Of a stretch of 64,000 nt of DNA, positions 8,095 through 63,523 are shown piece by piece. How positions within the stretch are numbered: the stretch's first letter is position 1; the number at the start of each line of letters is the position of its first letter. Below the pieces are notes generated by a model. The model did not search any database. It worked only from the letters and a program-made list of their open reading frames with translations, and was not told the origin of the DNA. The stretch covers positions 85,625 to 149,624 of the forward strand of contig DHGX01000001.1 in assembly GCA_002402995.1 (NCBI GenBank), written 5' to 3'. The DNA comes from Patescibacteria group bacterium UBA4787. Its GTDB lineage: Bacteria; Patescibacteriota; Patescibacteriia; UBA2591; UBA4787. A program made the translations under genes and the position numbers.

Positions 8095-8102
8095 ATCAAT
8101 CC

Positions 8103-8136
8103 AGAGGGGAGCTCAAGCTTCCCTCTTTTATTTATT
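8103..8136 (+). terminator. Rho-independent terminator after arc
   Basis: agaggggagctcaagcttccctc hairpin followed by TTTTATTTATTT. Confidence 0.6.
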
Positions 8137-8216
8137 TAATTAATTTTTTATTGACCAATGCACCTCGGCTTATTTTATCAAAAATAACGACTGTTGATAA
8201 AAACTTCTAAATGGGG

Positions 8217-8246
8217 TTGACAAATTGGGTTTTTTACAACTATAAT
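8217..8246 (+). promoter_or_regulatory. Promoter (TTGACA, 18 nt spacer, TATAAT) upstream of the dop-like gene
   Basis: gTTGACAaattgggttttttacaacTATAAT; leader motif CGTTCTTTAAA at 8269-8279; strong SD AAAGGGGG before the ATG at 8298. Confidence 0.6.
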
Positions 8247-8297
8247 TAAGTATTAAAAAATTAAATATCGTTCTTTAAAAAGAAAGGGGGTAACTCA

Positions 8298-9869
8298 ATG
8301 AGAATCCCAAAAGTTTTTGGCATAGAAACCGAATGGTCTGTTCGTGTTCGAACGCGCAATAGCGTCAGGTTAGCTAACGCCAAAGAATTCGGCGTATTAA
8401 TAAAATTTATACGCGAATTTTTTACTTTGACCAACACCAGACAAGATTCCCAATGGGAGGCTTGTTCGGTTGATGCTGACCGCGAGTTAGAGCAAGAAAT
8501 AGATCTGCGGCATATCGAGAGTGTTGGTTATCTACCGAACGGCGCTCGTTTATATGTCGACTGGCCGCATTTGGAATATTCAACGCCCGAATGTCAGACG
8601 ATTCGTGATTTAATCGCCGCTGACCAAGCTGGCAATTGGCTGCTTAATATGGCCGCCAAAAAAGCCAGTCAACTCTTGAAAAGAGAGATTATAATTATCA
8701 AAGATAATTCCGATCGCAAAGGCGTTTCTTATGCCAGCCACGAGAATTATTCTTTGCAGCCCAGAACATTTAAGGCCATGATCGACCGACAGAACAGCGA
8801 AGCTCGCGATTTGATTTTGCCGTTTTTGGTAACGCGTCAAATTTTGGCCGGAGCCGGCAAAGTTGGTTCCGAAGCTAATAATTTGAGATCTGCAGATTAC
8901 GGCGAAACAAATTTTCAGATTTCGCAACGCGCAGATTTTATCAATGAAATTATCGGTATCGCCACTACGTCGCCGCGCAATCTGATCAACAGGCGCGATG
9001 AACCACATGCTGATTCTGATCTCTGCCGGCGATTGCATGTTATTATTGGTGATGCCAATTTCTGCGATTGGTCTTATTTTTTGCGCGTTGGAACCTACGC
9101 TCTGGTTTTGCGCATGCTGGAAGATTGCTTTATCGGCAATTCGCCAGTTTGTGTCGACAACCACTGGCTCGAAGCGCTTTATCAGACCTCGCGAGATTTG
9201 ACATGCAAGAAGAAGTTGCAGATTGGCACGGCTAGTCAATCACAGATGAATCCGATCGAGATTCAGCGTTGGTATCTTGGCTTAGTCAAGGAATATCTTG
9301 CCGAGTTTAAAGGCAGCGCCGAAGATCATGAGGTTTGTGAAAAATGGGAATATGTTTTAAACGCTCTGGACAACGACCCGAACCAATTGTTCGGCGTCTT
9401 GGACTGGGTAACAAAGAAATGTATTCTTGATCAATATCTTCAACACCAAGGCTTGCTTTGGCAGGATTCTCGGCTCCGTGTAATCGACATAGCTTACCAC
9501 AATATTAGCGATGAGGCTGGTCTTTATTATCAATTTTTAAAAAAAGGGAAAATCCAGAAATTGATTAATAACGAGTTGTTAATGGATAGGGTTCATAATC
9601 CTCCCGTTGACACACGCGCCTATTTGCGCGGAAAGATCGCTCGGCTTTATCCTGAGTTTGTGGAAGATTGGGAGATAATTTCCAATCGCATGCCAAGTAG
9701 ATTTCGTAAGGAACAGTTGGATTCGTTAAGGGTTATCCTAGAAGAAAAACACATTATTACTTTGGGTAACCCGGTTTTAACGCGAGAAGAGAGCGAAGAA
9801 ATTTTCAAACAAATTATTAATCTTTTGAAATCATGGAAAGGAGGAAGCGAAGATGTTAACACGACTTGA
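8298..9869 (+). CDS. dop: Pup ligase/deamidase family protein, Dop-like (candidate Pup deamidase/depupylase)
   Basis: FGIETEW start motif and NGARLYVD.P..EYSTPEC. SHENYS, LPFLVTRQILAGAGKV, INRRDEPHAD, RRLHVIIGDAN and NPPVDTRAYLRG are all PafA/Dop signatures. It has the longest insertion of the three paralogs between GIETE and NGARLY and a C-terminal extension, which is Dop-like. Confidence 0.75.
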   Translation: MRIPKVFGIETEWSVRVRTRNSVRLANAKEFGVLIKFIREFFTLTNTRQDSQWEACSVDADRELEQEIDLRHIESVGYLPNGARLYVDWPHLEYSTPECQTIRDLIAADQAGNWLLNMAAKKASQLLKREIIIIKDNSDRKGVSYASHENYSLQPRTFKAMIDRQNSEARDLILPFLVTRQILAGAGKVGSEANNLRSADYGETNFQISQRADFINEIIGIATTSPRNLINRRDEPHADSDLCRRLHVIIGDANFCDWSYFLRVGTYALVLRMLEDCFIGNSPVCVDNHWLEALYQTSRDLTCKKKLQIGTASQSQMNPIEIQRWYLGLVKEYLAEFKGSAEDHEVCEKWEYVLNALDNDPNQLFGVLDWVTKKCILDQYLQHQGLLWQDSRLRVIDIAYHNISDEAGLYYQFLKKGKIQKLINNELLMDRVHNPPVDTRAYLRGKIARLYPEFVEDWEIISNRMPSRFRKEQLDSLRVILEEKHIITLGNPVLTREESEEIFKQIINLLKSWKGGSEDVNTT

Positions 9870-10602
9870 GTTGACTTGGCGATTAATGGATGAGCTAATC
9901 GCTCAATTCCTGAAATTGCCGAGCGCGATAGGACAGAGCGACTTTAAACTGGAAGAGTATTTACAGCAATCCCATCTTCACGGTACCACCGTCCTCGCTC
10001 TGAAATATCAGGGTGGAGTGCTGTTAGGTGGAGACGGTCGGGCTTCCGGCATGGATTTCCGTATTTTTACGGACAAAACTCCGAAGGTTTATCCGGTTTC
10101 CGAGTCGACTGCTTACGGTCTTTCTGGGGACGCTCATCTGGGTATTGAGGTGGGAAAGATCTTGGCTTTGACGCTTAAGAATTACGAGAAGAAAGAGTTT
10201 CGAGCCATGAGTTTTGTCGCTCAAACCAAGATGTTGGCTAAAATGATCGAGCGTTTACTGCCAATGGCTATGCAGGGCCGTATCGTGATGCCGATTTTCG
10301 TGTCATGTCAGGAAATCTGCACGATTTATCCGAATGGCATGGTGGTAAGGGGAGATGAAGGTTATGGTGGAATTGGTTCGGGTAGTCCTCACGCCATTCA
10401 TCGCATCAAGGCTCGTTTGGCTGATAACCCCAATCCAGATAAAACCAGGGCGATAGAAATTATACTCGAAGCTTTTGCGGAAGCTCATAAGAGTGATGCC
10501 GCAACCGGCTCTAATTTGCTGATTTATAGTCTGGAAGAGTCGGGAATCGCTATCGTTCGCAACGATGTCGGAAACGGACCGTTTTCGATGAACCTGTTGT
10601 AA
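9853..10602 (+). CDS. prcB: 20S proteasome beta subunit (PrcB) with propeptide
   Basis: The propeptide is followed by the active-site HG/TTVLALKYQGGVLLGGDGR, which matches the mycobacterial TTIVALKYPGGVVMAGDRR. The GIGSGS and AATGS motifs are present. The start overlaps the dop end by 17 nt and is preceded by GGAAAGGAGG. Confidence 0.85.
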   Translation: MLTRLELTWRLMDELIAQFLKLPSAIGQSDFKLEEYLQQSHLHGTTVLALKYQGGVLLGGDGRASGMDFRIFTDKTPKVYPVSESTAYGLSGDAHLGIEVGKILALTLKNYEKKEFRAMSFVAQTKMLAKMIERLLPMAMQGRIVMPIFVSCQEICTIYPNGMVVRGDEGYGGIGSGSPHAIHRIKARLADNPNPDKTRAIEIILEAFAEAHKSDAATGSNLLIYSLEESGIAIVRNDVGNGPFSMNLL

Positions 10603-10617
10603 TCGTGAGGTGAAATA

Positions 10618-11322
10618 ATGGCTGATAAATTGGATCTCATTGCCAACGACAAAGATAATGCCTTGCCGGTTATCGCAGTCAGCACCAAAGACGGCATACT
10701 TCTTGTCGCAATTAATTTTTCCATTAGTCCGGAGGATTCCGATACCTACATCCACAAACTTTCAGAGATCCATGACAATATCGGCATGGGCGCTTGTGGC
10801 AATAGCAGCGAGTATGATCCGCTGCGCAGGCAGTTTATCGACGTCGTTGATAGGCTTGCCTACGAGTTGTCCAAGGACGATATTGTCTTGAAGAGTCTGG
10901 CCAATAGTTTGGCCGGAGAGTTGCGCGATGTATATCGCAATCCCCGTCTGGTTCCTCGTGTGGTCTTCTTCGTCTTGGTGGAATGTCAGGAAGATTCGAA
11001 GCGGGATCGTTTCGTCCGGATCGGTCTCGACGGCAAGTTCAAGATCTTTAATAATTTCACGGTGATCGGCGGCAACGACAAAGAGGTTGGCGCTCTAATG
11101 GATAACCTCAGGTCCGTCGAATTTTTGGAGATGGACTGGCCGACCGCTTTAACCGCGATCAAGGAAGCGATAAAGAAAACCAACATCGCCCGGATCGCTG
11201 GCGCAAAGAAATCGGACAAGACCGTCGAACCGTTCCCATCCCTGGAGCTGGCAATTCTCTGGCGTGGAAGAACTGGCAGAAAATGGCAGCTTTTGCCGCA
11301 TCAAATTAAGGAGGTGAAATAA
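10618..11322 (+). CDS. prcA: 20S proteasome alpha subunit (PrcA)
   Basis: VIAVSTKDGILLVA, KLSEIHDNIGMGACGNSSEYDPLRR and VIGGNDKE align with PrcA segments. It follows prcB. Confidence 0.75.
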   Translation: MADKLDLIANDKDNALPVIAVSTKDGILLVAINFSISPEDSDTYIHKLSEIHDNIGMGACGNSSEYDPLRRQFIDVVDRLAYELSKDDIVLKSLANSLAGELRDVYRNPRLVPRVVFFVLVECQEDSKRDRFVRIGLDGKFKIFNNFTVIGGNDKEVGALMDNLRSVEFLEMDWPTALTAIKEAIKKTNIARIAGAKKSDKTVEPFPSLELAILWRGRTGRKWQLLPHQIKEVK

Positions 11323-11323
11323 A

Positions 11324-11527
11324 ATGCTTAAAAAGCAGTTTCTATTCTTAACCCCAGACGAGCAAGAAAAAAAGGAGACTGAAAAACATCCTCTGGGGCC
11401 CAAGCCCGGCGGACCTGGCTCCGGTAAGAAGGCAGACAAAAATGATGATAACATCGATGACATCCTTGATGACATCATCGAACGGAATAAGCGGGTTAAT
11501 GAAACTGACGAGCGAGAGGGTCAGTAA
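11324..11527 (+). CDS. pup: Prokaryotic ubiquitin-like protein Pup (67 aa, C-terminal -EGQ)
   Basis: Small acidic, disordered protein whose C-terminal half DDNIDDILDDIIERNKRVNETDEREGQ resembles the Pup helix plus the terminal G-Q. Strong SD AAGGAGGTG. Located between prcA and a pafA-like gene. Confidence 0.6.
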   Translation: MLKKQFLFLTPDEQEKKETEKHPLGPKPGGPGSGKKADKNDDNIDDILDDIIERNKRVNETDEREGQ

Positions 11528-11535
11528 TATTTAAT

Positions 11536-11568
11536 CCCCGCACTTTAAAATAGTGCGGGGATTTTTTT
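11536..11568 (+). terminator. Rho-independent terminator after pup
   Basis: ccccgcactttaaaatagtgcgggg hairpin followed by ATTTTTTTAT. Confidence 0.7.
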
Positions 11569-11673
11569 ATAATCGCAATGAGCGAGGCAGCAGAAATTTT
11601 ATTTTTAGATTGCCGGACAGGTCAGATTATATATTGAAGAGAGGCATAGTTCTCCTCTTCTTCTATTTTAATT

Positions 11674-11708
11674 TGACAAATCATCAAAAAAAGATAAGAT
11701 TTATATAA
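11674..11708 (+). promoter_or_regulatory. Promoter (TTGACAAAT-type) upstream of pafA-like paralog 2
   Basis: tTTGACAaatcatcaaaaaaagaTAAGATttatataag; GTTCCTTAAAA leader variant at about 11725. Confidence 0.45.
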
Positions 11709-11755
11709 GAAAAATAATAATGTTGTTCCTTAAAATTATTCAAGGAGAGAATAAA

Positions 11756-13285
11756 ATGAAGAAGAGAATTATTGGGATAGAGAATGAATATCGGATTCAG
11801 GCTCTGCCCGGATTCGATAAAAGCAGATACAAGGTTTATTTTCGGGGATTGAAAATAAGCTTGAATCAGTTTCTATCCAACGGAGCGAGGTTTTATTTGG
11901 ATTTTCCGAGCGAACTGCCGGAGTATTGCACGCCGGAAGTTACGACCATCCGTGAAGTTCTGGCGCATGAACGCGCCGGAGATTATATTGTCTGGGAGAG
12001 CCTGAAAGACATGATGGAAATTTTTAGGCGGAATACCAGTCAGCCAGGTCTCTTTTACAAATATCTGGCAAGTGGTTGTCATGAGAACTATCTTTTTTAT
12101 CTTGATGAAGCTATCAAGTCAACTGCGAATATCTACCCGCAGATGAGCGGCCACATCTTGGCAAGATTGGTGGCTTTTTTGGGGCCCTTCTTGGTCTCTC
12201 GACAGATTTTTTGCGGCGCTGGTTGGTGGTTAACAAATGAAGATGGGCGAAGTTATTTTAATATTTCGCAGCGCGCCCATTTTATGAAGCGTGATTACGG
12301 CGGAGACACGATGCAGAATAGGGCGATTATCAATTCTCGGAATGAATCATTGTGTTCGTCGAGCAATTATTCTCGTCTTCATCTCATTGTTGGCGACTCC
12401 AATATGAGCGATCTCTCTGGTTTTCTCAAGCTCGGCACCACGTCTATCGTTTTAAGGATGATCGAAGCAGGCTTCTTTGATCCACAAGACATTGTTCTAG
12501 TTGATCCGGTTGCGGCTATCGCTGTCATTTCCGATGATTTGAGCTGTAAGGCGACTGTCCAGGCCGGCGGTTTGCATCGTTCGCTTTCAGCCATTGACAT
12601 CCAAGAGTGGTATCTTAATAAAGCTCGTGAATTTTTTGAATGTCGAGAAGTATCCGAAGAGGAGAAGGAGGTTATAAAATATTGGCAGGAAGTTTTGGAC
12701 AAACTGCGCCGAGACCCCATGCTTCTCAAAGAGGAGATCGACTGGGTGATCAAATATAATTTGATTTGCCGTTATGCTGAAAAACACGGTGTTGATCTCG
12801 ATCATTGTTCGGACGAGGAGAGTGAAGCGCTGAGAGTCATTGACACTCATTATCATTCTCTAAATCCGGAGAGAGGTTTGTACCACAAGCTTCTCGGCGC
12901 TGGGAAGATCGCCAAGCTTATTAGTGATAAAGAGGTGGCTTTGGCAATAAAATCTCCACCGACTGATACGCGAGCCAAAGTCCGTGGTGACTTCATTTCT
13001 TTCATCCTGAAAAATCATGCGGATTTGGTTAGGTATTTCATCGTCAATTGGGACGCTATTCGTTATAATTATCGTGCTAATGGATTTTCTAGGCTGATCC
13101 ACGAATTTCAACCTAATCAAGACGATGAATCGGTGAAAGCCTGTGTTTTCAATCTCGGCGATCCGTTTCTTTCAACAGAAACTTGCAACAACTTCCAAGT
13201 ATTGGTTGAAGAGATTGAGTCTCACCAAGAATTTTTCAAATCTATGATACCAACTCCGTCTCCTGACCATCGCGATTATGAATAG
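11756..13285 (+). CDS. pafA: Pup ligase family protein, PafA-like (paralog 2)
   Basis: IGIENEY, NGARFYLDFP.ELPEYCTPE, GCHENYL, RLHLIVGDSNMSD, LKLGTTSIVLRMIE, EIDWVIKYNL, PPTDTRAKVRG. Start chosen at MKKRII with SD AAGGAGAG. The GIENE-to-NGARFY spacing is short, which is PafA-like. Confidence 0.8.
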   Translation: MKKRIIGIENEYRIQALPGFDKSRYKVYFRGLKISLNQFLSNGARFYLDFPSELPEYCTPEVTTIREVLAHERAGDYIVWESLKDMMEIFRRNTSQPGLFYKYLASGCHENYLFYLDEAIKSTANIYPQMSGHILARLVAFLGPFLVSRQIFCGAGWWLTNEDGRSYFNISQRAHFMKRDYGGDTMQNRAIINSRNESLCSSSNYSRLHLIVGDSNMSDLSGFLKLGTTSIVLRMIEAGFFDPQDIVLVDPVAAIAVISDDLSCKATVQAGGLHRSLSAIDIQEWYLNKAREFFECREVSEEEKEVIKYWQEVLDKLRRDPMLLKEEIDWVIKYNLICRYAEKHGVDLDHCSDEESEALRVIDTHYHSLNPERGLYHKLLGAGKIAKLISDKEVALAIKSPPTDTRAKVRGDFISFILKNHADLVRYFIVNWDAIRYNYRANGFSRLIHEFQPNQDDESVKACVFNLGDPFLSTETCNNFQVLVEEIESHQEFFKSMIPTPSPDHRDYE

Positions 13286-13326
13286 TCCCGTTCTGGCTGA
13301 TTGAAATCCCCATTTTATTTTTATTA

Positions 13327-13356
13327 ACGCTCCTAAATAATTAGGAGCGTTTTAAA
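13327..13356 (+). terminator. Terminator after pafA-like paralog 2
   Basis: gctcctaaataattaggagcg hairpin followed by TTTTAAATTT. Confidence 0.55.
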
Positions 13357-13357
13357 T

Positions 13358-13386
13358 TTGACAAATTATCAAAAAACGCTAAGCTT
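13358..13386 (+). promoter_or_regulatory. Promoter (TTGACAAAT-type) upstream of pafA-like paralog 3
   Basis: tTTGACAaattatcaaaaaacgcTAAGCT; CGTTCTTTACAAAGAAGGG leader nearly identical to the dop leader. Confidence 0.45.
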
Positions 13387-13430
13387 TAAATAATAAAATT
13401 AAAATCGTTCTTTACAAAGAAGGGAATAAA

Positions 13431-14900
13431 ATGCAAAAACGCATTTATGGTTTGGAGACTGAGTATAGGTGGTGGAGTTCCTTGCCGGAGAAAAACCCCG
13501 ATAATCCGAGTCAGGTTTTTTCCGGATATCATTTGAATACTATAGTCAATTACTATCCGGGTAATTATTCTGGCTTTTTGCCAAACGGCGCTAGGTTTTA
13601 TGTGGACATGGTTCGGTTTCCAGAGTTCTCAACTCCGGAATGTGCGAGTGTTAGAGATGCCGTGATTTGGGATAAGGCAGGGGAAAAAATAGTTTTCGAT
13701 TGTTTGGGCGGCGCTGTTGTCATCCGAAAAAGAAATTTAGGCAGCAACGGAAAAGTACAGGGTTGCCACGAGAATTATTTGATCGATCGCCAGGTCTTAT
13801 TGAAAGATCGCGACATCTCTCTCGGTCATGTCCATTTGGTCGAACGAGACTTTAATTATTTGGCCGATCGTCTAATTCCTTTTTTGGTGACGCGCCAGGT
13901 TTTCTGCGGCACCGGCGCCATTATGGAGTTCCCACAAATTCAGATAGGGGAAAATCCTTCAACTCAGTGTTTATATCGCTATGTCATTTCACAGCGAGCT
14001 TTCAGAATCGAGCATTTAATCCACGCCGAGACTACTAATAATCGGCCGATCATTAACATGCGCAATGAGCCTCTGTGCGGTGGCGACGAGAGATATTTCC
14101 GCCTGCATCTGATTCTGGGTGATTCTAATCTTTCAGAGTTTTCGACTTTCTTGAAATTGGGTACTACTGGCATAATCTTGCGGATGATTGAGGCTGATTT
14201 TTTAGACACAACCAGTATTGCTCTGCTTGATCCATTAGCAGCTCTTCGGCAAGTCGCGATAGATCCGACTTGCAAAAAAAGGCTAGACTTGGTTGATCAA
14301 CGTCAGTTTTCAGCTATCGACATTCAACAGTGGTATCTCGACAAAGCCAATAAGTTCTTCCAGCGCAACGAAGCTTCAGAAGAGGAAAAAGAAGTGATTG
14401 AGCGTTGGCAAGAAACGTTGGACAAACTGCGCCGAGACCCCATGCTTCTCAAAGAGGAGATCGACTGGGTGATCAAGCTCAACGCTTTGATAAGATATTG
14501 CGAATCTCGCAATTTATCTTTTGACAGCGAAGAAGCAAGGCGTCTTGACGTGGCTTATCATGATCTTGATCCGGATAATTCTCTCTACTTAAAACTTCTT
14601 AAACGTGGTCGCGTCAAGAGGTTAGTTGCCGAGGAAGAGATCGAGAACGCCATTGTTAATCCGCCCGATACGCGCGCCAAAATTAGAGGTTCTGTTATAC
14701 TGGCAATCAACGATTATATTAATCGTTCGTCTATTGGCCGTGATCGCGGCATCTTAATAAACTGGGATTTGGTTTCTGTGTATGCTTCTACGATTCCTCC
14801 TACCACTACTTCTGATAAGATAATAACACTAAGCGATCCTTTCGCGGTGGAAAATTCGGAAATCCAGGCTCTAGTCAACCAATTAAATGCTACACTTTAA
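13431..14900 (+). CDS. pafA: Pup ligase family protein, PafA-like (paralog 3)
   Basis: YGLETEY, NGARFYVD...FPEFSTPEC, GCHENYL, LIPFLVTRQVFCGTGA, RLHLILGDSNLSE, LKLGTTGIILRMIE, EIDWVIKLNAL and PPDTRAKIRG. Confidence 0.8.
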   Translation: MQKRIYGLETEYRWWSSLPEKNPDNPSQVFSGYHLNTIVNYYPGNYSGFLPNGARFYVDMVRFPEFSTPECASVRDAVIWDKAGEKIVFDCLGGAVVIRKRNLGSNGKVQGCHENYLIDRQVLLKDRDISLGHVHLVERDFNYLADRLIPFLVTRQVFCGTGAIMEFPQIQIGENPSTQCLYRYVISQRAFRIEHLIHAETTNNRPIINMRNEPLCGGDERYFRLHLILGDSNLSEFSTFLKLGTTGIILRMIEADFLDTTSIALLDPLAALRQVAIDPTCKKRLDLVDQRQFSAIDIQQWYLDKANKFFQRNEASEEEKEVIERWQETLDKLRRDPMLLKEEIDWVIKLNALIRYCESRNLSFDSEEARRLDVAYHDLDPDNSLYLKLLKRGRVKRLVAEEEIENAIVNPPDTRAKIRGSVILAINDYINRSSIGRDRGILINWDLVSVYASTIPPTTTSDKIITLSDPFAVENSEIQALVNQLNATL

Positions 14901-31281: not shown

Positions 31282-31339
31282 ATTTTAATAATTAATAGAA
31301 CATAATTAATTTCTGGCGCAACGATTTATTTGATATTTG

Positions 31340-31588
31340 CCCCGTAATACAACTTCGATGAGACCGACTCTGGTCGGCCCAAAAATCATGGAAAATTTTG
31401 TTAGTTAGATTGATAAACCCCGTTAGAGATTTAAAATTAAATATATTTAGGAGATTGACAAGAGCCGTGAGGCGGCTTCGCCTTAGTTGGGCGACAAAAG
31501 ATAGTCTCGGCTGAATCTCTAACGGGGTAAACATAAATATTTATTAGGACATAAAAATTATTAAAAATATCGAAGATGATATACGGGG
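31340..31588 (+). mobile_element. Miniature inverted-repeat element, family B copy 1 (about 249 bp, includes a nested hairpin module)
   Basis: Imperfect TIRs CCCCGTAATACAACTTCGAT ... ATCGAAGATGATATACGGGG. A second copy lies at 35835-35975. The internal arms AACCCCGTTAGAGATT / AATCTCTAACGGGGT (31416-31431 and 31514-31527) enclose a TTGACA box. Confidence 0.55.
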
Positions 31589-31652
31589 TTTGCCAAAATC
31601 ATTTTATTTCTATAGAATAATTGAGTATTTTAAAATTAAAAGTCTTTTTAAT

Positions 31653-35826: not shown

Positions 35827-35834
35827 TCATTATG

Positions 35835-35975
35835 CCCCGTAATACAACTTCGATGGGGCCGACGATAGTCGGCCCAGAACCCCCCCAGGAGAATTTTATT
35901 AGTTAGATTTATAAATATAAATAATATTTACCAAGATCCAAAAAATTATTAAAAATATCGAAGATGATATACGGG
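35835..35975 (+). mobile_element. Miniature inverted-repeat element, family B copy 2 (about 141 bp)
   Basis: Same termini as 31340-31588 (CCCCGTAATACAACTTCGATGGGGCCGAC...ATCGAAGATGATATACGGGG), lacking the nested module. Confidence 0.55.
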
Positions 35976-35977
35976 GT

Positions 35978-36427
35978 ATGTCAATTATTTATTTTAGGAT
36001 TAAAAGATGGTCTGCCATCTTATTAGTTCTTATTTTTTTTATTTTTGACCGCGCGCTAAAAGAAATTTATTTTTATTTCAACCATCATAAAAATTTATTT
36101 TATTTTTTTGATAGCGGATTATTTTTAAATAGAAATTTTGTTTTTGGAATGATCGAACCATCCTGTTTGATGATGATCGTCCTTGCTGTATTTTTTATTT
36201 TTTTAATTTGGCAGGCGATTAATTTTTGGCAGAAAAATTCTTGGGTTAACTTTTTTGCTTTTAGTTTAATTATCGCCGGAGCCTTCTCAAATATTTTGGA
36301 CAGATTTTTTTACGAAGCCGTGGTAGATTATTGGCAGATGCGGAATTTAAATATTTTTAATTTTTCCGATATAATGATTATCGGCGGTTTAATTATTTTT
36401 ATAATTAATTTTTTAAAGAAAAAATAA
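35978..36427 (+). CDS. lspA: Lipoprotein signal peptidase II
   Basis: LspA motifs (IIAGAFSNILDRFFYEAVVDY and FNFSDIMIIGG). The start is uncertain because the annotated ATG lies at the edge of the family-B element. Confidence 0.65.
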   Translation: MSIIYFRIKRWSAILLVLIFFIFDRALKEIYFYFNHHKNLFYFFDSGLFLNRNFVFGMIEPSCLMMIVLAVFFIFLIWQAINFWQKNSWVNFFAFSLIIAGAFSNILDRFFYEAVVDYWQMRNLNIFNFSDIMIIGGLIIFIINFLKKK

Positions 36428-38760: not shown

Positions 38761-38850
38761 CCAATTTAGATCATTAACATTCCTGTTGAATCTGTCGCAA
38801 AAAGCGACGGATTTTTAACAGGGTAAATAAAAACCAAAAGGAGAAAAACG

Positions 38851-39660
38851 ATGAGTAAAGTCATCGGCGCAGACGCGGCCAAATTGGCTGGTTTGCAGAT
38901 CGACACGCTCCAGAAAGCGCGTGACGGCCAGATCACCCTCGAACACTGGGAATGGTTTAATAAGTTAACGAAAACAGAGCGCGATCGGCTTTGCAGAGAC
39001 GGCCATGTCGATACCAGAAGTCAGGCCAGACAAACTATCGAAGCCGTAAATAAAGTGGTATCATCTGCCCAAGAAAGATGGGCCGCTTTTGATGACCTCT
39101 TCGATCGCCAGATTCAAACCCTGCGCGACCGGGGCTGTCCCAGCCAGGTATTGGCCATGCTCATCAGTCAGAAACCCCAGGTGCTGGCCAAAGCTTCGAC
39201 CATGACCTTCAAGGAAGGTCGCATCCCGTTCCTGTCAATCATCCCGTTCTCTGCACTCAATCTCTCGACCCAGATGTCCATGGTCAGAAATGGAAACCAG
39301 TCCGGCATCAGCTGTCTCGACACCAACGAGATCAAGGACATCGTCTCCACGCCTGTCCAGCCCTATTTCATCTTTGACGTGGAAGACGGCGAAGGCATGT
39401 TGGGCCGGTCCGTTCTGAAAGCCACTGAACTCATCAAGAGCCAGAACCGTTCCCCCTTAACCGCTGCCGAGGTCATCAGTCTCGGCATCCAGGCCAAGGC
39501 GCTGTCCAAGCGCTACGTGGACGCCGCTGGCTCCCGCTACAGGAACGACGACCGCGCCCCGTTTCTGTGCCTCGACGTCAGTCGGCCGGGACTCGGCTGG
39601 AACGGCGTCGACAGCTCGTTCAGCGAGTGTGGCTCGGCATCGTGCGGTAGTCGGTCCTAG
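38851..39660 (+). CDS. Hypothetical protein (GC-rich, probably horizontally acquired)
   Basis: 269-aa ORF with clearly higher GC than flanking genes, a good SD and its own terminator; no recognised domain. Confidence 0.5.
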   Translation: MSKVIGADAAKLAGLQIDTLQKARDGQITLEHWEWFNKLTKTERDRLCRDGHVDTRSQARQTIEAVNKVVSSAQERWAAFDDLFDRQIQTLRDRGCPSQVLAMLISQKPQVLAKASTMTFKEGRIPFLSIIPFSALNLSTQMSMVRNGNQSGISCLDTNEIKDIVSTPVQPYFIFDVEDGEGMLGRSVLKATELIKSQNRSPLTAAEVISLGIQAKALSKRYVDAAGSRYRNDDRAPFLCLDVSRPGLGWNGVDSSFSECGSASCGSRS

Positions 39661-47670: not shown

Positions 47671-49193
<1,523 letters not shown>

Positions 49194-50273: not shown

Positions 50274-50363
50274 AAATAAATATGTATTTTGTTAATGGGC
50301 ATTTAGTCCACCAGCTGGTGGAGAACCCTAGTCCTCTTCCGCCTGCCCCGTTAAATTTCTGAA

Positions 50364-50434
50364 TGGGCGACCAAGGAATCGAACCCTGTTCTCTTCCGTG
50401 TAAAGGAAATGTTTTACCATTAAACTAGTCGCCC
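50364..50434 (-). tRNA. tRNA-Val (anticodon TAC)
   Basis: The reverse complement GGGCGACTAGTTTAATGGTAAAACATTTCCTTTACACGGAAGAGAACAGGGTTCGATTCCTTGGTCGCCCA. Confidence 0.85.
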
Positions 50435-50501
50435 AAGATTAATTTAACGGGGTGGATAAAGGAAGCTTAATCCCTTTATAATACCCATTATTTTTTTAAA
50501 G

Positions 50502-53392: not shown

Positions 53393-54052
53393 TTAGTCTT
53401 CTTGCTCAAGCGCACCACCTGTGGCGCCGGCGACGATTTGACCGTTTTTGGCTTCTTCGATGACCAGATTATCAATGTTGTCCTTCGGGGTGGTTGGTCC
53501 GGTCGGTCCAGCCGGAGGATGGGGCGACCAGTCAGACTTGATGATTCTGATCACTTCTTGGATGTCGGCATTTTTGAAGATTAGGCGCCAGGCAGCTTCA
53601 TTGGGTTCTCGGTTGACGCAGATAAAAAATTCTTTGCCTCCCCCAAGTCCTATCTTTTCTTCCAGCGCTCTTAAGACCGCGATGATCTCTCTGGGCTTGC
53701 GATTGATAAAGAGACGGTGCCAAGCATCGTGGATTTTGTGGAGTATTTTTTTCTTATTCCATGATTCGCTGGTGCCGCCGCGGGAACGCGGAATTAGATG
53801 ATGGACGGTCAGTTCATTGGGGTTGCGAGGTTGTACGGGGACGCGCGATTTTTTATCTTTTGTTCCCGTGGGGATCGCTGTTTTTTTACTCTTATGCCCG
53901 ATAACGGTTTTTATCTTGTCTACGTTTTTGACGGTGAGCCGGCTTCCGATTCTTTTTTCAAACAAGCGCAGTTGTTTTCTCCGTCTGCGTTTAACCGCGC
54001 TTTGTCTGATGCTAATCAGCTTCTTGCTTTTCTGGATTTTTTTACGTGCCAA
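53393..54052 (-). CDS. Basic protein with HNH-like motif
   Basis: Lys/Arg-rich N-terminus; HHLIPRSRGG...N...HKIHDAWH resembles an HNH nuclease core. GC is elevated at the 3' end. Confidence 0.3.
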   Translation of the reverse strand: MARKKIQKSKKLISIRQSAVKRRRRKQLRLFEKRIGSRLTVKNVDKIKTVIGHKSKKTAIPTGTKDKKSRVPVQPRNPNELTVHHLIPRSRGGTSESWNKKKILHKIHDAWHRLFINRKPREIIAVLRALEEKIGLGGGKEFFICVNREPNEAAWRLIFKNADIQEVIRIIKSDWSPHPPAGPTGPTTPKDNIDNLVIEEAKNGQIVAGATGGALEQED

Positions 54053-54100
54053 CTTATGACACCCCCTTTCTTTCTATTTTTATTTTAAAAGTGCGATTAA

Positions 54101-58298: not shown

Positions 58299-59981
58299 AT
58301 GGATAATTCAACAAGCAAAATTAAATTAACCGAGGAAGAGGGAGCGGCAAAATTACAGGAAAAATTAAAAACAATTAGTAGTAAGGGCGAAGAAGAGGAA
58401 GTAGAAGAAAAAGCCCGTTTTGCCGGTTTAAGTTATGTCAACTTGGTTCGTTTTCCGATTGCGCCGGAAGCCCTATCTCTATTGACCCCAGAAGACGCTT
58501 TAAAATATCACGCCATTTGTTTTTATGCCGGCGAGCGAGACGCCAAGATTGGTTTTGTAAAAGCCGAAGACCAGACTGTCAAAGAAGTTAAAGAAATGAT
58601 TGAATCCATTTACCGCCTTAAATTAGAAGTTTTTTTAATTTCTCAGACAAGTTTCGATTACGGATATAAATTATACGCTTCTTTGCCCAAGGTTAGTAAA
58701 TTTGCTACAGGCGTGGAAATCACCGAAGAGAATTTGAAAAAATACCAAGTTGCCATCAAAACTTTCCGCGACTTGGACCAAAAAATTAAAGAAGTTTCTA
58801 TTTCCGACATTATTATTTTAATAATGGCTGCTTCTTTGCAATCTAGAAGCTCGGATATCCATATTGAGGCTGAAGAAGCAGACATTAAAATTAGATTTCG
58901 CGTAGACGGTGTTTTAATTGACGTAGCTTCTTTGCCGAAATCTTTTTGGAAACAAGTAGTCACTAGAATCAAATTGCTTTCCGGATTGAAAATCAATATT
59001 ATTGATAAACCGCAAGATGGCCGTTTTACGATTCATTTGTCTAACGAGAGTATTGATGTTCGTGTTTCTTGTTTGCCGACTGCTTTCGGGGAAAGCGTGG
59101 TGATGAGAATCTTGCGTTCGTCTTCAACCGGGCTTTCTTTTGACAATTTAGGTCTTCGCGGTACGGTTTACGAAAAATTGAAACAAGAAGTAGAGCGACC
59201 AAACGGCATGGTTATTACTACTGGCCCCACAGGTTCAGGTAAAACTACAACGCTATACGCGATTTTGAATAAAATTAATGATCCGGAGACAAAAATTATC
59301 ACACTAGAAGATCCCGTGGAATATCAACTGAAGGGTATTAATCAAAGTCAGGTTGATCCCAGTCGCAATTATACTTTCGCCGCGGGCTTAAGATCTATTT
59401 TGCGCCAAGATCCGGACGTAGTAATGGTTGGAGAAATTCGCGACCTAGAAACAGCAGAGATTGCTATCCAGGCGGCTCTAACTGGCCACTTAGTAATTTC
59501 GACTTTACATACTAATGATGCGGCTGGCGCTCTTCCGCGTTTTTTGTCTATGGGGGTCAAGCCATATCTATTAGCGCCGGCGATTAACGCGATTATTGGT
59601 CAGCGTTTGGTGCGGCGTATTTGCGAACACTGCAAAGAAGAAATGATTTTGTCGCCAGAAGTTTTAGAAAAAGCTAAAAAAACACTTTCAGACATTCCTT
59701 TTGTGTCCGGCGTGAAAGTTGATTTAAACACTCTTAAATTTTATCATGGTTTGGGTTGCGACGAATGCCAGGGTTTGGGTTATAAAGGACGTATAGGCAT
59801 TTATGAAGTTTTTAATATGAACGCGGAAATCGAAAAAGTGATTGTTGGCGGAGAAGTAAGCGAGTATTTAATACGCGATTTAGCTAAAAAACAGGGTATG
59901 TTGACTATGGCGCAAGACGGTATTCTAAAAGCCATAGAAGGTATCACCACCGTAGAAGAAGTTTTCCGTGTTACCGAGTAA
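58299..59981 (+). CDS. pilB: Type IV pilus / type II secretion ATPase (PilB/GspE)
   Basis: Walker A GPTGSGKTT, the Asp box, His box LVISTLHTND, and a C-terminal tetra-Cys CEHC...CDEC. Confidence 0.85.
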   Translation: MDNSTSKIKLTEEEGAAKLQEKLKTISSKGEEEEVEEKARFAGLSYVNLVRFPIAPEALSLLTPEDALKYHAICFYAGERDAKIGFVKAEDQTVKEVKEMIESIYRLKLEVFLISQTSFDYGYKLYASLPKVSKFATGVEITEENLKKYQVAIKTFRDLDQKIKEVSISDIIILIMAASLQSRSSDIHIEAEEADIKIRFRVDGVLIDVASLPKSFWKQVVTRIKLLSGLKINIIDKPQDGRFTIHLSNESIDVRVSCLPTAFGESVVMRILRSSSTGLSFDNLGLRGTVYEKLKQEVERPNGMVITTGPTGSGKTTTLYAILNKINDPETKIITLEDPVEYQLKGINQSQVDPSRNYTFAAGLRSILRQDPDVVMVGEIRDLETAEIAIQAALTGHLVISTLHTNDAAGALPRFLSMGVKPYLLAPAINAIIGQRLVRRICEHCKEEMILSPEVLEKAKKTLSDIPFVSGVKVDLNTLKFYHGLGCDECQGLGYKGRIGIYEVFNMNAEIEKVIVGGEVSEYLIRDLAKKQGMLTMAQDGILKAIEGITTVEEVFRVTE

Positions 59982-60050
59982 CGCACTTGACTCTTCAATA
60001 AGAAATAGGATAGAATTATCTTATTGATAAATAGCACTTTTAAAAATTCA

Positions 60051-60108
60051 CCCCGTTAAATCCTATAGAGTAGGAATTCCGACTAAAGTCGCAATTATTT
60101 AACAAGGG
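60051..60108 (+). promoter_or_regulatory. Leader hairpin CCCCGTTAAAT...ATTTAACAAGGG followed by GTAAATAAAAA and SD AAGGAGG
   Basis: Same architecture and 3' sequence (TTAACA(A)GGGTAAATAAAAA) as the leader at 38782-38835. Confidence 0.5.
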
Positions 60109-60143
60109 TAAATAAAAATTCTCAAAAAAAGGAGGATTCTAAA

Positions 60144-61008
60144 ATGAGGCGTAAAGACTGTGACAGCAAGAATGGTCTGCTTCTGCCATCAGAAGAGCTT
60201 ATTAAGGATAACATCTATCTGATCCAGGGTGTTTTGGAAATCGACATGTTCGGCTATCCTGATGAAGATGGTAATTATGTTCGCTACGACGAATGCTCGT
60301 TGCATTATGTCCGCGACAAGCTTCTACTCTACTGGATGAAGTTGATGAAAGGTGAGCTCAAGCTCGAGGACGAGGAAAGGCGTCCGCTTGTTATCGTCAT
60401 CGATTCACCTGGTGGTAACGTGGCCAGCATGTTCCAGGTTTACGACATCATGCAGAATTTGATAGGCATGGGTATCAAGATTTATACTGTCGGTTTGAGC
60501 CTGTGTGCTTCCGGCGGCGCTTTTCTTCTGATGTCAGGCACTAAGGGTTGCCGCTTTGTTCTGCCGCATACTCGCGTGATGTTGCATCTGGCCCGTCAGT
60601 CTTCCTCCGCAACGCCCGAAGGGGCCTCTGCCTCTCCCGCCGACCCCGTCCGTATCCCAGGGAGAAGCTTTAGAGGAAGACCAGGAAGATCGACTAAGAT
60701 TGTATGAAGAGCAGAAGCGAGTGTATGAAGAGACACTAAAAATAGCCGCTCGTAAGCGTAAACAGAAGGAAGAAGCGGACAAAGAAGCTTTGGCTGAATT
60801 CAGGCGCGTTCAAGAGAAGCTGGTAGATCTCATCATGAAGCACTGCAAAAACGGCGATCAGTCAAGTCGGTCGATCGTTCGGAGCGAGATGGCCAAAAAG
60901 GATTTTTGGTTCGAAGATCAGAAAACAGTTGACTACGGAATCGTCGACCATATCCTTTCGCCAGAAAACGCTCAAGAAATAACCGGATTGCCTCCGAAGG
61001 CTTCCTAG
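60144..61008 (+). pseudogene. clpP: ClpP-family serine protease homolog, reading frame broken (two overlapping ORFs, 60144..60707 and 60580..61008)
   Basis: The N-terminal part has IDSPGGNVASMFQVYDIMQ, GLSLCASGGAFLLMSG and HTRVMLH. The C-terminal part in a different frame has ...SEMAKKDFWFEDQKTVDYGIVDHIL. A roughly 60-bp, very GC-rich segment (60607-60662) sits at the frame junction. Confidence 0.5.
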
Positions 61009-61102
61009 CCTAAATCTGTTCCTGACCCAACTTTTCCGAAAAAGTAACAAAATAAAATCACCGATTTATAATAAATCGGTGATTTTTCTGTTAAATTTAA
61101 TT

Positions 61103-63523
61103 TTATTCACGGATTTTGATTTTGACATTTTCAATCTCAATTTCTTCTCTGGTTTGCTCTGCTACTTCTGACGAGATATTTACTTTGGCCAATTTATTGA
61201 TAATTTTCGCATATTCTAGGACATCTCTATCTTCGATAGAGATGTTTAATATTTTATTGTTTTCTATCTTATTGGTTGTGCGATAATTTCTGATACCGGC
61301 GATGATATTTTTTAATTTTTCAAATTCCGAAACAATTTTTTCGTTAATAAATCTTTTCTCGATTTTCGGCCACCTATCGATCATCAATAAATTTTCTGAC
61401 TTTTCTAAATTTATTTTATCTTTTAGGTTTTGGTAAATAGTTTCCGTCACAAAAGGCGCGAACGGATGGATTAAGCACAGTATATTTTTTAAAAGATATT
61501 TCAAAATGACCAAAGTATTGGCTTTCATCTCCGGCGTTGCGTCTTCAGCCACCTGAGTTTTGCTGATTTCCAAATACCAATCGGCAAATTCGTGCCAGAC
61601 AAAATCGTAAATTTTATGGCCAGCTTCTCCGAATTCGCAATTGTCTATATTTTTAGTTACTTCGCTAATAATTTCATTTAGGCGAGAGAGTATCCATTCG
61701 TCAACCAAGGTAATGGGTTCTATTTTTGTTTTGGGCAGATTGGCGTTATTGTCAATGTTCATTTCTATGAAGCGGGCGATATTCCAAAGTTTATTGATAA
61801 AATTGCGGCAGGCCAAAATTGTTTGTTCGTCGAATTTAATGGCCTGTTGGTCGCGGTTAGTCATATACATCAAACCAAAACGCGTGGCGTCGGATCCGTA
61901 TTTATTGATTAGTTCCAATGGATCAATGCCCGTACCTAAAGATTTGCTCATTCGCCGGCCCTCAACATTCAAAACAGTGGCATGAATGTAAACAGTTTCA
62001 AAAGGAATTTCTTTCATAAATTCCAAAGAAGAAAAAATCATTCTAGCTACCCACAAGAAAATAATATCCTTGGCCGTGGTTAAAAATGACGTAGGATAAA
62101 ATTCTTTTAGGTTTTTGGTTTTTTCCGGCCAGCCTAAAGCGGCGAACGGCCATAAAGCGGAAGAAAACCAAGTGTCCAACGTGTCTTCGTCTTGAATAAT
62201 ATTATTTGAGTCGCAATGCGGGCACTTATTCGGTTTGGTTTGGGAAACAATAGCTTCGCTTTTACAATCGCTACAATAATAAACTGGAATCCTGTGTCCC
62301 CACCATAATTGACGCGAGATGCACCAATCATCAATATTTTCCATCCAATTAATTAAAATATCGTGATAGCGTTCAGGCACGACTTTAACTTTGCCAGATT
62401 TAACCGCTTTAATGGCCGGTTTGATCAATTCGTCCATGCGCACAAACCATTGCTCGGAAATAATTGGCTCAATCGTCGTGCTGCAGCGGTCGCAATATCC
62501 GATTGAATGTTCGTAGTCTTCTATTTTATCCAACAATCCTTGTTGTTCTAAGAGTTTTACTATTTTTTCGCGCGCTTCTATGGTGGTTAGGCCTTCAAAG
62601 TCTTCGCCCGCTTCCTTGGTCATTTTCGCATCAGTGCCAATCACGTTAATAATGTCCAATTTATTAGTTTTTCCAATCTGCCAATCAACTTTATCGTGAG
62701 CCGGCGTTATTTTTACTGCGCCGGTGCCGAAAGTCATATCAATCTTATGGTCAGCCACAAATTTTATTTTGCGGTTAACGACAGGTAAGATAATGGTTTT
62801 GTCTAATAAATTTTTATATCTTTCGTCGTTGGGATTAATTGCCACGGCTGTATCGCCGAGCATGGTTTCCGGTCGGGTGGTGGCAACTGTCACATAACCA
62901 GAGTCATCTTCATAAGGATATTTGATATACCAAAGTTTAGTTTTTTCGGGTTTATATTTTACTTCTAAGTCGGAAATAGCGCTGTTGCAACGCGGGCACC
63001 AATTAACGATGCGTGGCCCTTTATAGATATAGCCCTTTTTCCAATAATTAACGAAAGCCTCAAAAACTGCTTGCGAATATTTTTCATCAAGCGTGAATCT
63101 CTGGCGCGACCAATCGCAAGAGCAGCCTAAAAGTTTGAGCTGGCTAACAATCAAACCGCCATATTCTTTAACCCATTGCCAAACTCGTTCAATAAATTTC
63201 TCTCGGCCCAACTGATGTCGGTTAGTTCCCTCTTTGACAAGCTGTTTTTCCACTACATTTTGCGTGGCAATACCCGCATGATCGGTGCCGGGCATCCAAA
63301 GCGTTTGGAAGCCCTGCATTCTTTTGAATCTGATTAATAAATCTTGAATCGTGTTATCCAGAGCGTGTCCCATATGCAGAGATCCGGTAACATTTGGCGG
63401 GGGGATCATAACCACATATTTTTTTTTGCAATTTTTTAAATTATCCGGGTTAAAAAATCCACTTTCTTCCCAAAGCTTATAGATTTTTTCTTCATTTTGT
63501 TTCGGCTCGTAAATTTTATCCAT
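61103..63523 (-). CDS. valS: Valyl-tRNA synthetase
   Basis: PPPNVTGSLHMGHA (HIGH), KMSKS (RMSKSLGT), and an editing-domain-sized insertion; 806 aa. Confidence 0.85.
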   Translation of the reverse strand: MDKIYEPKQNEEKIYKLWEESGFFNPDNLKNCKKKYVVMIPPPNVTGSLHMGHALDNTIQDLLIRFKRMQGFQTLWMPGTDHAGIATQNVVEKQLVKEGTNRHQLGREKFIERVWQWVKEYGGLIVSQLKLLGCSCDWSRQRFTLDEKYSQAVFEAFVNYWKKGYIYKGPRIVNWCPRCNSAISDLEVKYKPEKTKLWYIKYPYEDDSGYVTVATTRPETMLGDTAVAINPNDERYKNLLDKTIILPVVNRKIKFVADHKIDMTFGTGAVKITPAHDKVDWQIGKTNKLDIINVIGTDAKMTKEAGEDFEGLTTIEAREKIVKLLEQQGLLDKIEDYEHSIGYCDRCSTTIEPIISEQWFVRMDELIKPAIKAVKSGKVKVVPERYHDILINWMENIDDWCISRQLWWGHRIPVYYCSDCKSEAIVSQTKPNKCPHCDSNNIIQDEDTLDTWFSSALWPFAALGWPEKTKNLKEFYPTSFLTTAKDIIFLWVARMIFSSLEFMKEIPFETVYIHATVLNVEGRRMSKSLGTGIDPLELINKYGSDATRFGLMYMTNRDQQAIKFDEQTILACRNFINKLWNIARFIEMNIDNNANLPKTKIEPITLVDEWILSRLNEIISEVTKNIDNCEFGEAGHKIYDFVWHEFADWYLEISKTQVAEDATPEMKANTLVILKYLLKNILCLIHPFAPFVTETIYQNLKDKINLEKSENLLMIDRWPKIEKRFINEKIVSEFEKLKNIIAGIRNYRTTNKIENNKILNISIEDRDVLEYAKIINKLAKVNISSEVAEQTREEIEIENVKIKIRE

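What the first reader, a model, noticed from the sequence alone, without database searches (positions are those of the whole stretch)
60144..61008. clpP-like gene split across two frames with a very GC-rich segment at the junction
The ClpP catalytic-core motifs (SPGG, the S in GLSLCASGGAF and HTRVMLH) are in frame 60144..60707. The conserved C-terminal segment (DFWFEDQKTVDYGIVDHIL) is in the overlapping frame 60580..61008. Between them lies 60607-60662, a run of near 70% GC encoding Pro/Ser/Gly-rich peptide in every frame. The cause could be a genuine pseudogene, a sequencing indel in a homopolymer, or a programmed frameshift or insertion. The gene is also a GC outlier with the portable leader described above.
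Basis: seen in the sequence. Interest (0 to 1): 0.55.

Follow-up and report, generated by a model that had tools for sequence, protein, structure and literature searches.

The report
Frameshifted divergent ClpP-like protease gene
A very divergent ClpP-type protease gene in a groundwater Patescibacteria genome is broken by one extra G in a GGGG run; this looks like an ordinary, recent, strain-specific frameshift, not a programmed recoding signal.

Summary
ORF 60144-60707 carries the ClpP Ser and His. The +1 frame (open from 60580, ending 61008) carries the ClpP C-terminus with the catalytic Asp. Two orthologs in the same gene order (type II secretion ATPase, clpP-like, ValRS) are single ORFs of 291 and 282 aa. 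DNA alignment puts exactly one extra base in GGGG at 60621-60624; removing one G gives a colinear 287-aa ORF. The same sequence, frameshift included, occurs in per-run assemblies of three SRA runs, a JGI assembly and the NCBI/ENA record, so a one-off assembly error is unlikely. No intact allele of this strain was found. The frameshift is not conserved, and I found no slippery-site/rare-codon pair and no significant RNA structure, so programmed frameshifting is unsupported. The downstream frame has no further lesions and no relaxed dN/dS, so the mutation is recent or tolerated. The GC-rich junction is an ancestral Pro/Ala/Ser-rich linker inside a ~57-aa handle-region insertion shared by the orthologs. 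The gene's high GC is also shared, so it is not a recent import. Verdict: a genuine, recent single-base frameshift, probably inactivating. Interest is low. Side findings: a Pup-proteasome cluster and structured intergenic repeats.

The parts
59987..60016 (+). Sigma-70-type promoter, TTGACT-18-TAGAAT
   Evidence: Consensus scan gives 10 of 12 matches. The -35 and -10 blocks are conserved in the orthologous loci L004 and L006.
60017..60143 (+). 5' leader. It has a conserved start (TTATTGATAAATAGCACTTTTAAAAA), a window-specific ~62-nt branched hairpin insert (about 60046-60107), then TAAATAAAAA and the Shine-Dalgarno AGGAGG at 60130-60135.
   Evidence: Alignment with the ortholog leaders shows the insert only in the window. 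RNA fold is -21.6 kcal/mol, z -2.45. A similar hairpin+TAAATAAAAA module lies upstream of the gene at 38851.
60144..60707 (+). ORF1 (187 aa): N-terminal two thirds of the ClpP-like protein with Ser123 (60510-60512) and His148 (60585-60587). After the shift it reads 27 out-of-frame residues and ends at TGA 60705-60707.
60621..60624 (+). Frameshift site: GGGG, one base longer than the orthologous GAG codon in L004. Frame 0 matches the orthologs up to here and frame +1 matches them from the next base on.
   Evidence: DNA alignment A2 and protein alignment A1. Deleting one G gives an 864-nt ORF of 287 aa.
60596..60672 (+). GC-rich (61-75% GC) stretch encoding the Pro/Ser/Ala/Gly-rich linker at the start of the handle-region insertion. 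It is poorly conserved among orthologs.
   Evidence: The low-confidence AF2 model of ortholog P0001 puts no secondary-structure element at the equivalent residues.
60591..60852 (+). Lineage-specific insertion in the ClpP handle region. Corrected residues 150-236 (87 aa) lie where solved ClpP1 chains have about 30 aa. It consists of the linker plus a long charged helix.
   Evidence: phmmer against PDB chains: query 78-149 aligns to chain 53-121 and query 237-274 to chain 152-190. Pfam profile positions 117-127 are unmatched.
60622..61008 (+). C-terminal third in the +1 frame (128 codons plus TAG), with catalytic Asp253 at 60901-60903. Gene callers start the ORF at TTG 60700 (102 aa).
61054..61086 (.). 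Bidirectional intrinsic-terminator-like hairpin between the clpP-like gene and the convergent valS
   Evidence: Terminator scan finds a 15-bp stem followed by a T-run.

Best explanation
This is a genuine single-base insertion, an extra G that makes GGGG at 60621-60624, in a chromosomal, vertically inherited and very divergent ClpP-family protease gene of a Patescibacteria strain. The insertion lies 11-12 codons after the catalytic His, in a disordered Pro-rich linker. Normal translation therefore gives a 187-aa product that has Ser123 and His148 but lacks most of the handle, the catalytic Asp253 and the C-terminus. The remaining 128 codons are left out of frame. The event is evolutionarily recent and most likely inactivates the gene in this strain, so it is a young pseudogene. 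Shown here: the position and nature of the indel, its reproducibility across assemblies, the intact orthologs, and the absence of further decay. Inferred: loss of function. The loss may be tolerable because the same genome carries a Pup-proteasome system.
For: (1) Orthologs P0001 (291 aa) and P0002 (282 aa) are uninterrupted ORFs in the same gene order, T2SSE ATPase / clpP-like / valS. (2) The DNA alignment shows exactly one extra base in the window at GAAGGGGCC against GAA-GAGCC. Frame 0 agrees with the orthologs before it and frame +1 after it. Removing one G gives a colinear 287-aa ORF. (3) Logan per-run assemblies of SRR1313282, SRR1313283 and SRR1313285, and JGI assembly 3300002703, are 100% identical to the window over 2.1-8.3 kb including the GGGG. 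The two ORFs are also on record from NCBI and ENA. (4) No intact allele of this strain turned up among 5.8 billion protein clusters; the best full-length hit is 78% identical. (5) Eighteen other ORFs of the window were scanned against Pfam, including several adjacent or overlapping pairs, and none looked like a fragment of a split gene. (6) There is no sign of a programmed signal. (7) A Pup-proteasome cluster at 6370-14900 gives this genome another compartmentalised protease.
Against: The downstream +1 frame has no stop codon or second indel in 128 codons. Its dN/dS against L004 is 0.135, as low as the upstream part (0.171). Window-specific codon changes are 16 synonymous to 10 non-synonymous downstream, against 18 to 10 upstream. 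So there is no signature of decay. That fits a very recent lesion, but it fits continued use of the downstream frame equally well. Read-level data were not available, and the three SRA runs may come from related samples of one study.
Confidence: 0.68

Rival explanations
1. Sequencing or consensus error: the true genome has GGG and one intact 287-aa ORF.
For: The lesion is a one-base length difference in a homopolymer inside a 75% GC stretch, and a single-base correction restores the ORF. The lack of any decay downstream is what an artefact would look like.
Against: Three separate per-run assemblies, a JGI assembly and the NCBI/ENA record all carry the identical sequence. From general knowledge, a run of only four G is not a typical source of consensus-level indels in short-read data. 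No protein or fragment with the intact junction exists in the collection.
Confidence: 0.1
2. Recoding by +1 ribosomal frameshifting, programmed or just leaky. A P-site tRNA re-pairs one base downstream somewhere in the 60580-60707 window where both frames are open, for example tRNA-Gly on GGG-G at 60621-60624. Other candidates are tRNA-Pro(UGG) on the frame-0 CCC-G sites at 60615-60618, 60636-60639 and 60645-60648. Some full-length protease would be made.
For: GGG-G and three CCC-G sites allow re-pairing in the +1 frame. From established knowledge of sufA/sufB/sufD suppressors and of m1G37/EF-P-dependent CCC-N shifting, such sites are shift-prone. GGG is the rarest Gly codon here, at 9%. The linker is poorly conserved, so a shift anywhere in it would give an acceptable protein. 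The downstream frame shows purifying-selection-like statistics.
Against: The frameshift is absent from both orthologs, so it is not a conserved feature. The 0-frame codon after GGG is GCC, a common Ala codon at 32%, not a stop or a rare codon. No SD-like element sits at prfB-like spacing from a shift-capable codon (my reading). The local RNA fold is not unusual, z -1.04. No comparable case is known for clpP (my knowledge).
Confidence: 0.08
3. A functional two-chain ClpP-like protein: ORF1 is translated, ribosomes terminate at TGA 60705-60707 and re-initiate at the overlapping TTG 60700, and the two fragments assemble non-covalently because the break lies in a flexible linker.
For: The stop and start overlap (TTGTATGA). 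The break falls in the poorly conserved, proline-rich linker. The downstream frame is intact and conservatively evolving. Chlamydomonas ClpP1 is processed into ClpP1N, ClpP1C and ClpP1C' pieces that stay in the core complex (bioRxiv 10.1101/2021.07.26.453741).
Against: TTG 60700 is simply the ancestral Leu codon, identical in L004. No SD-like sequence sits at a usable distance; the nearest AGAGG is about 24 nt upstream (my reading). ORF1 would carry a 27-residue out-of-frame tail, and ORF2 would lack the first ~26 residues that follow the shift in the corrected protein. The catalytic triad would be divided between two chains, for which no bacterial precedent is known to me.
Confidence: 0.07

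Closest known systems
Canonical ClpP (MEROPS S14; Pfam PF00574), e.g. Mycobacterium tuberculosis ClpP1 and E. coli ClpP
   Same: Pfam CLP_protease matches above the gathering score. The conserved SPGG block and the Ser-His-Asp residues align with solved ClpP1 chains.
   Different: All NCBIfam ClpP models score far below their cutoffs; for the intact ortholog, 81 against 228 bits and 59 against 308.6 bits. There are about 57 extra residues in the handle region (Pro-rich linker plus long charged helix) and about 30 extra residues near the N-terminus. The clade is tiny: one other 50%-identity cluster at E<1e-30 among 1.84 billion representatives. In this window the gene is frameshifted.
Frameshift pseudogenes of bacteria (single-base indels in short homopolymers)
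   Same: One indel relative to intact syntenic orthologs, and a premature stop 28 codons later.
   Different: No secondary lesions and no relaxation of dN/dS, so it is either very young or not a dead gene.
prfB (RF2) programmed +1 frameshift
   Same: A +1 shift would be needed to make the full-length product, and a G-rich SD-like string (AAGGGG) is present at the site.
   Different: prfB uses a conserved CUU-UGA-C site, with an in-frame stop and an SD three bases upstream, kept across bacteria (my knowledge). Here there is no stop or rare codon at the site, no conservation in orthologs and no proper spacing.
Chlamydomonas chloroplast ClpP1 with its IS1 insertion, processed into ClpP1N, ClpP1C and ClpP1C'
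   Same: A ClpP subunit with a large lineage-specific insertion that exists in the complex as separate polypeptides.
   Different: There the pieces arise by proteolytic processing of one translated chain, not from a frameshifted gene, and the insertion is unrelated.

Membership tests
ClpP family (Pfam PF00574 / MEROPS S14) | Sequence match to the family profile above the curated threshold | tested here: met
   ORF1 scores 66.9 bits and the +1-frame part 21.9 bits against a cutoff of 20.2. 107 PDB ClpP sequences match at E<=0.01.
ClpP family (Pfam PF00574 / MEROPS S14) | Ser-His-Asp catalytic triad at the aligned positions | tested here: met
   Ser123 (CASGG), His148 (VMLH) and Asp253 (KKDFWF) align with ASMGE, ILMHQ and DRDRWF of ClpP1 chains. 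In the window, Ser and His are in frame 0 and Asp is in frame +1.
ClpP family (Pfam PF00574 / MEROPS S14) | One uninterrupted reading frame encoding the whole subunit | tested here: not met
   A one-base insertion at 60621-60624 splits the gene. The orthologs P0001 and P0002 meet this feature.
Canonical ClpP equivalog (NCBIfam TIGR00493 and PRK subfamilies) | Score above the curated equivalog or subfamily cutoff | tested here: not met
   The intact ortholog P0001 scores 59.3 against 308.6 (TIGR00493) and 81 against 228 (NF009205).
ClpP family (Pfam PF00574 / MEROPS S14) | Double-heptamer barrel that docks a Clp ATPase through hydrophobic pockets | not testable with these tools
   The AF2 monomer model of the ortholog was poor, mean pLDDT 43. 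No clpX/clpA/clpC and no second clpP were seen in the window, but only tblastn for clpP was run.
Programmed +1 ribosomal frameshift (prfB type) | Shift site conserved among orthologs | tested here: not met
   Both orthologous lineages have a single frame. No further split copies were found in any collection.
Programmed +1 ribosomal frameshift (prfB type) | Slippery P-site codon followed by a stop or rare 0-frame codon | tested here: not met
   The site reads GGG-GCC, and GCC makes up 32% of Ala codons in 29 long ORFs. GGG-G does allow re-pairing.
Programmed +1 ribosomal frameshift (prfB type) | Stimulatory element: an SD-like sequence at fixed spacing, or RNA structure | tested here: inconclusive
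   AAGGGG is present, but no shift-capable codon lies 3 nt downstream of it (reading). Folding 60596-60715 gives z -1.04.
Frameshift pseudogene | Disabling indel relative to intact orthologs | tested here: met
Frameshift pseudogene | Relaxed constraint or further lesions downstream | tested here: not met
   dN/dS is 0.135 downstream against 0.171 upstream. Window-specific changes are 16 synonymous to 10 non-synonymous downstream, against 18 to 10 upstream. There are no stops in 128 codons. This fits only a recent event.
Assembly or sequencing artefact | The indel is not reproduced in independent data | tested here: not met
   The sequence is identical in three per-run Logan assemblies and in the JGI assembly; the two ORFs are also on record from NCBI and ENA. 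Read pileups could not be inspected.

The most novel reading that the evidence does not exclude
The strain still makes an active protease from the broken gene. It would do so either by lineage-specific +1 slippage on GGG-G or CCC-G codons inside the permissive Pro-rich linker, or as a two-chain ClpP-like enzyme whose catalytic triad is shared between two polypeptides. Either would explain why the downstream frame shows no decay.
Probability: 0.12. Interest if true: 0.6.

Novelty: new member of a known kind. Interest (0 to 1): 0.2.

Why it matters
As a frameshift it matters little: it is one more strain-specific lesion, useful mainly as an annotation note that the two called ORFs are one disrupted gene. 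The context is more interesting. The intact gene belongs to a very small, fast-evolving clade of ClpP-like proteins with a ~57-residue handle insertion, so far seen only in a few groundwater Patescibacteria, in a genome that also carries a Pup-proteasome cluster. If the gene really is dispensable here, that hints that this unusual ClpP-like protease and the proteasome are redundant in a reduced genome. If it is still expressed, it would be a rare case of a tolerated or recoded frameshift in a compartmentalised protease.

Tried and rejected
Programmed frameshift: rejected as the main reading, because it is not conserved, has no rare or stop codon and no significant structure.

Intein, insertion element or foreign insert at the junction: rejected, because the GC-rich linker is present in the intact orthologs.

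Recent horizontal import as the cause of the high GC: rejected, because the orthologs have the same elevated GC and GC3 (0.485-0.503, and 0.586-0.601) against ~0.39-0.40 flanks, in conserved synteny.

Prophage head-maturation protease: rejected, because PHROG and NCBIfam phage models score lower than the cellular ClpP models and the context is chromosomal, near dnaA.

Second clpP paralog in the window: none found by tblastn.

Known RNA family in the leader or at the junction: none. Rfam at E<=1 gave only chance hits on the terminator hairpin.

Structure prediction of the ortholog with a 6-sequence alignment gave pLDDT 43, so it was not used beyond noting that no secondary-structure element is predicted in the linker; no fold search was run.

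More orthologs: scans of the GTDB representatives and the JGI metagenomes returned only the already known lineages.

Origin of the SRA runs: the literature search found nothing relevant.

Polarising substitutions on the window branch with a reliable outgroup was not possible. The gene trees of the T2SSE ATPase and of valS/clpP-like disagree.

Full report
**What is in the sequence**

The window has a 187-aa ORF at 60144-60707. A second frame, +1 relative to it, is open from 60580 to the TAG at 61006-61008. Pfam CLP_protease matches ORF1 residues 76-152 to profile positions 43-116 of 182 (E 2.7e-18). It matches the second frame to positions 128-180 (E 1.7e-4, just above the gathering score).

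phmmer against all PDB chains gives two-part alignments to actinobacterial ClpP1. Corrected residues 78-149 align to chain residues 53-121 and end at the catalytic His. Corrected residues 237-274 align to chain residues 152-190 and contain the catalytic Asp. So Ser123 (60510-60512) and His148 (60585-60587) are in frame 0, and Asp253 (60901-60903) is in frame +1.

The stretch 60607-60662 is 75% GC, and all three frames are open across it.

**Where the frame changes**

A protein search found two full-length relatives: P0001 (291 aa, 78% identical) and P0002 (282 aa, 71% in that search). It also found the window's own 187-aa ORF. Both relatives are single ORFs in the same gene order as the window: type II secretion ATPase, clpP-like gene, then convergent valS.

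In the protein alignment, frame 0 follows the orthologs up to ...HLARQSSSATPE. Frame +1 follows them from PLPLPPTPS... onward. The DNA alignment shows exactly one extra base in the window, GAAGGGGCC against GAA-GAGCC in L004. The lesion is therefore inside GGGG at 60621-60624. Deleting one G gives an 864-nt ORF of 287 aa that is colinear with the orthologs.

**Real or artefact**

The two ORFs are on record from NCBI, ENA, JGI and Logan. Logan per-run contigs from SRR1313282, SRR1313283 and SRR1313285 are 100% identical to the window over 2.1-5.5 kb, including the GGGG. The JGI contig from 3300002703 is identical over 8.3 kb.

No protein with an intact junction from this strain exists among 5.8 billion clusters. 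Eighteen other ORFs of the window, including several adjacent or overlapping pairs, were scanned against Pfam, and none looked like a fragment of a split gene. That argues against a generally indel-prone assembly. I could not inspect reads, so an error is not excluded, but I rate it at about 10%.

**Programmed or accidental**

The shift is absent from both orthologous lineages. No other split copies were found in the GTDB representatives, the JGI metagenomes, or an exhaustive HMMER scan of 1.84 billion representatives.

At the site the 0-frame reads GGG-GCC, and GCC is a common Ala codon at 32%. No stop or rare codon follows a slippery codon. No shift-capable codon lies at prfB-like spacing from the SD-like AAGGGG. 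Folding 60596-60715 gives z -1.04. Rfam finds nothing there. Programmed frameshifting is therefore unsupported.

What remains possible is leaky +1 slippage. GGG-G and three frame-0 CCC-G sites lie within the 127-nt zone where both frames are open. Because the linker is poorly conserved, a shift anywhere in that zone would yield an acceptable protein.

**Age of the lesion**

Downstream of the shift there is no stop and no second indel in 128 codons. dN/dS between the window and L004 is 0.171 upstream and 0.135 downstream. I then counted codons where the two orthologs agree and the window differs. Upstream there are 18 synonymous and 10 non-synonymous changes. Downstream there are 16 and 10.

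The branch-length ratios show no window-specific acceleration relative to valS. The lesion is therefore recent on the scale of these divergences (dS 0.4-1.3), or the downstream frame is still used. Gene trees of the flanking genes disagree with one another, so finer polarisation was not possible.

**What the gene is**

It is a very divergent member of the ClpP superfamily. All NCBIfam ClpP models score far below their cutoffs even for the intact ortholog. Phage head-maturation protease models score lower still. The context is chromosomal, three genes from dnaA.

Relative to solved ClpPs there are 87 residues where about 30 are expected between the catalytic His and the segment before the catalytic Asp. 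From established knowledge of ClpP structure, that is the handle region. The extra sequence is a Pro/Ala/Ser-rich linker followed by a long charged helix. The AF2 model was too poor to add anything, with pLDDT 43.

The clade is tiny. Apart from the P0002 cluster, the next best hit in 1.84 billion representatives is a 216-aa protein at E 1.7e-23.

The gene evolves about three times faster than its neighbours. Its amino-acid identity to the L004 ortholog is 78%, against 93-94% for the ATPase and valS. It is still under purifying selection.

**The GC questions**

The GC-rich junction is present, with different sequence, in both intact orthologs, and it simply encodes the Pro/Ala/Gly/Ser-rich linker. 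The whole gene has GC 0.49 and GC3 0.52-0.59 against 0.39 for the window. The orthologs show the same pattern: GC 0.485 and 0.503, with GC3 0.59-0.60, against flanks of 0.39-0.42. The composition is an old, shared property of the gene and not a mark of recent import.

**Leader**

A TTGACT-18-TAGAAT promoter (59987-60016) and the start of the leader are conserved in the orthologs. The window alone has a ~62-nt branched hairpin inserted between GCACTTTTAAAAA and TAAATAAAAA. A related hairpin+TAAATAAAAA module precedes the gene at 38851. The leader as a whole is not repeated in the window.

**Verdict**

This is a genuine, recent single-G insertion in a short homopolymer that splits a divergent ClpP-like gene. 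It is most likely inactivating in this strain (confidence about 0.68). The rivals are:

- a sequencing error (about 0.10);
- leaky or programmed +1 frameshifting (about 0.08);
- a functional two-chain enzyme made by re-initiation at TTG 60700 (about 0.07).

The finding is ordinary in kind, so interest is low. The most useful outcomes are the annotation correction and the side observations listed separately.

Noticed in passing
window 6370-14900 (+): A complete-looking Pup-proteasome gene cluster in a Patescibacteria genome. It holds an AAA ATPase with a weak proteasomal OB-domain match (6370-8094) and three Pup_ligase-family paralogs (8298-9869, 11720-13285, 13431-14900). Two proteasome subunits lie at 9853-10602 and 10618-11322. 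All are GC-elevated (GC 0.44-0.50, GC3 up to 0.62, against 0.39 for the window). A full-text search found no paper linking bacterial proteasomes with the Candidate Phyla Radiation.
   Followed up: partly
window 31338-31596 and 35833-35984 (+): Two intergenic elements share their ends: GCCCCGTAATACAACTTCGATG... pairs with ...ATCGAAGATGATATACGGGG. They fold into long closed structures (-81.8 and -50.3 kcal/mol; z -6.3 and -6.5). The first carries a nested CCCCGTTAGAGATT...AATCTCTAACGGGG hairpin. There is no Rfam match at E<=1.
   Followed up: partly
window 50346-50353 and 50445-50452; also 31418/31520, 60051, 15557, 27069; L004 and L006 just upstream of the clpP-like promoter: The octamer CCCCGTWA is enriched (9 found, 2.6 expected). 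It occurs as inverted pairs, one of which brackets tRNA-Val (50363-50435). AATCTCTAA(C/T)GGGG abuts the -35 box of the clpP-like promoter in both orthologs but not in the window. This could be a family of small palindromic elements or processing stems.
   Followed up: partly
window 60046-60107 and 38780-38833: The 5' leader of the clpP-like gene carries a ~62-nt branched hairpin that the orthologs lack. A similar hairpin followed by GGGTAAATAAAAA and an SD precedes the DUF5701 gene at 38851.
   Followed up: partly
window 6328, 8270, 13407, 28892, 47566 (+): A GTTCTTTAAA-type motif lies shortly downstream of promoter-like sequences of several GC-elevated genes, and about 100 nt upstream of the 16S rRNA. 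GCACTTTTAAAA is the variant at the clpP-like gene (60034) and at 54083(-). The enrichment is modest: 9 found against 3.8 expected with one mismatch.
   Followed up: partly
window 38851-39660 (+): This is the strongest compositional outlier among the protein-coding ORFs: a 269-aa DUF5701 protein with GC 0.57 and GC3 0.71. Other GC-elevated ORFs are TspO/MBR (2637-3107) and an unassigned 219-aa ORF at 53393-54052(-).
   Followed up: no
window 49180-49193 (+): The 3' end of the 16S rRNA reads GGATCACCTCTTTT, so the anti-SD is CCUCU rather than the usual CCUCC. Ribosome-binding sites in the window are mostly AGGAGG or GGGGG.
   Followed up: no
whole window: Among 29 ORFs of at least 250 aa, the stop codons are TAA 24, TAG 4 and TGA 1. 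The premature stop of the frameshifted ORF1 is a TGA.
   Followed up: no
window 58299-63523 compared with L004 and L006: Neighbouring genes give conflicting relationships among the three genomes. For the T2SSE ATPase the window is closest to L004. For valS and the clpP-like gene, L004 and L006 are closest. This suggests recombination among these lineages.
   Followed up: no
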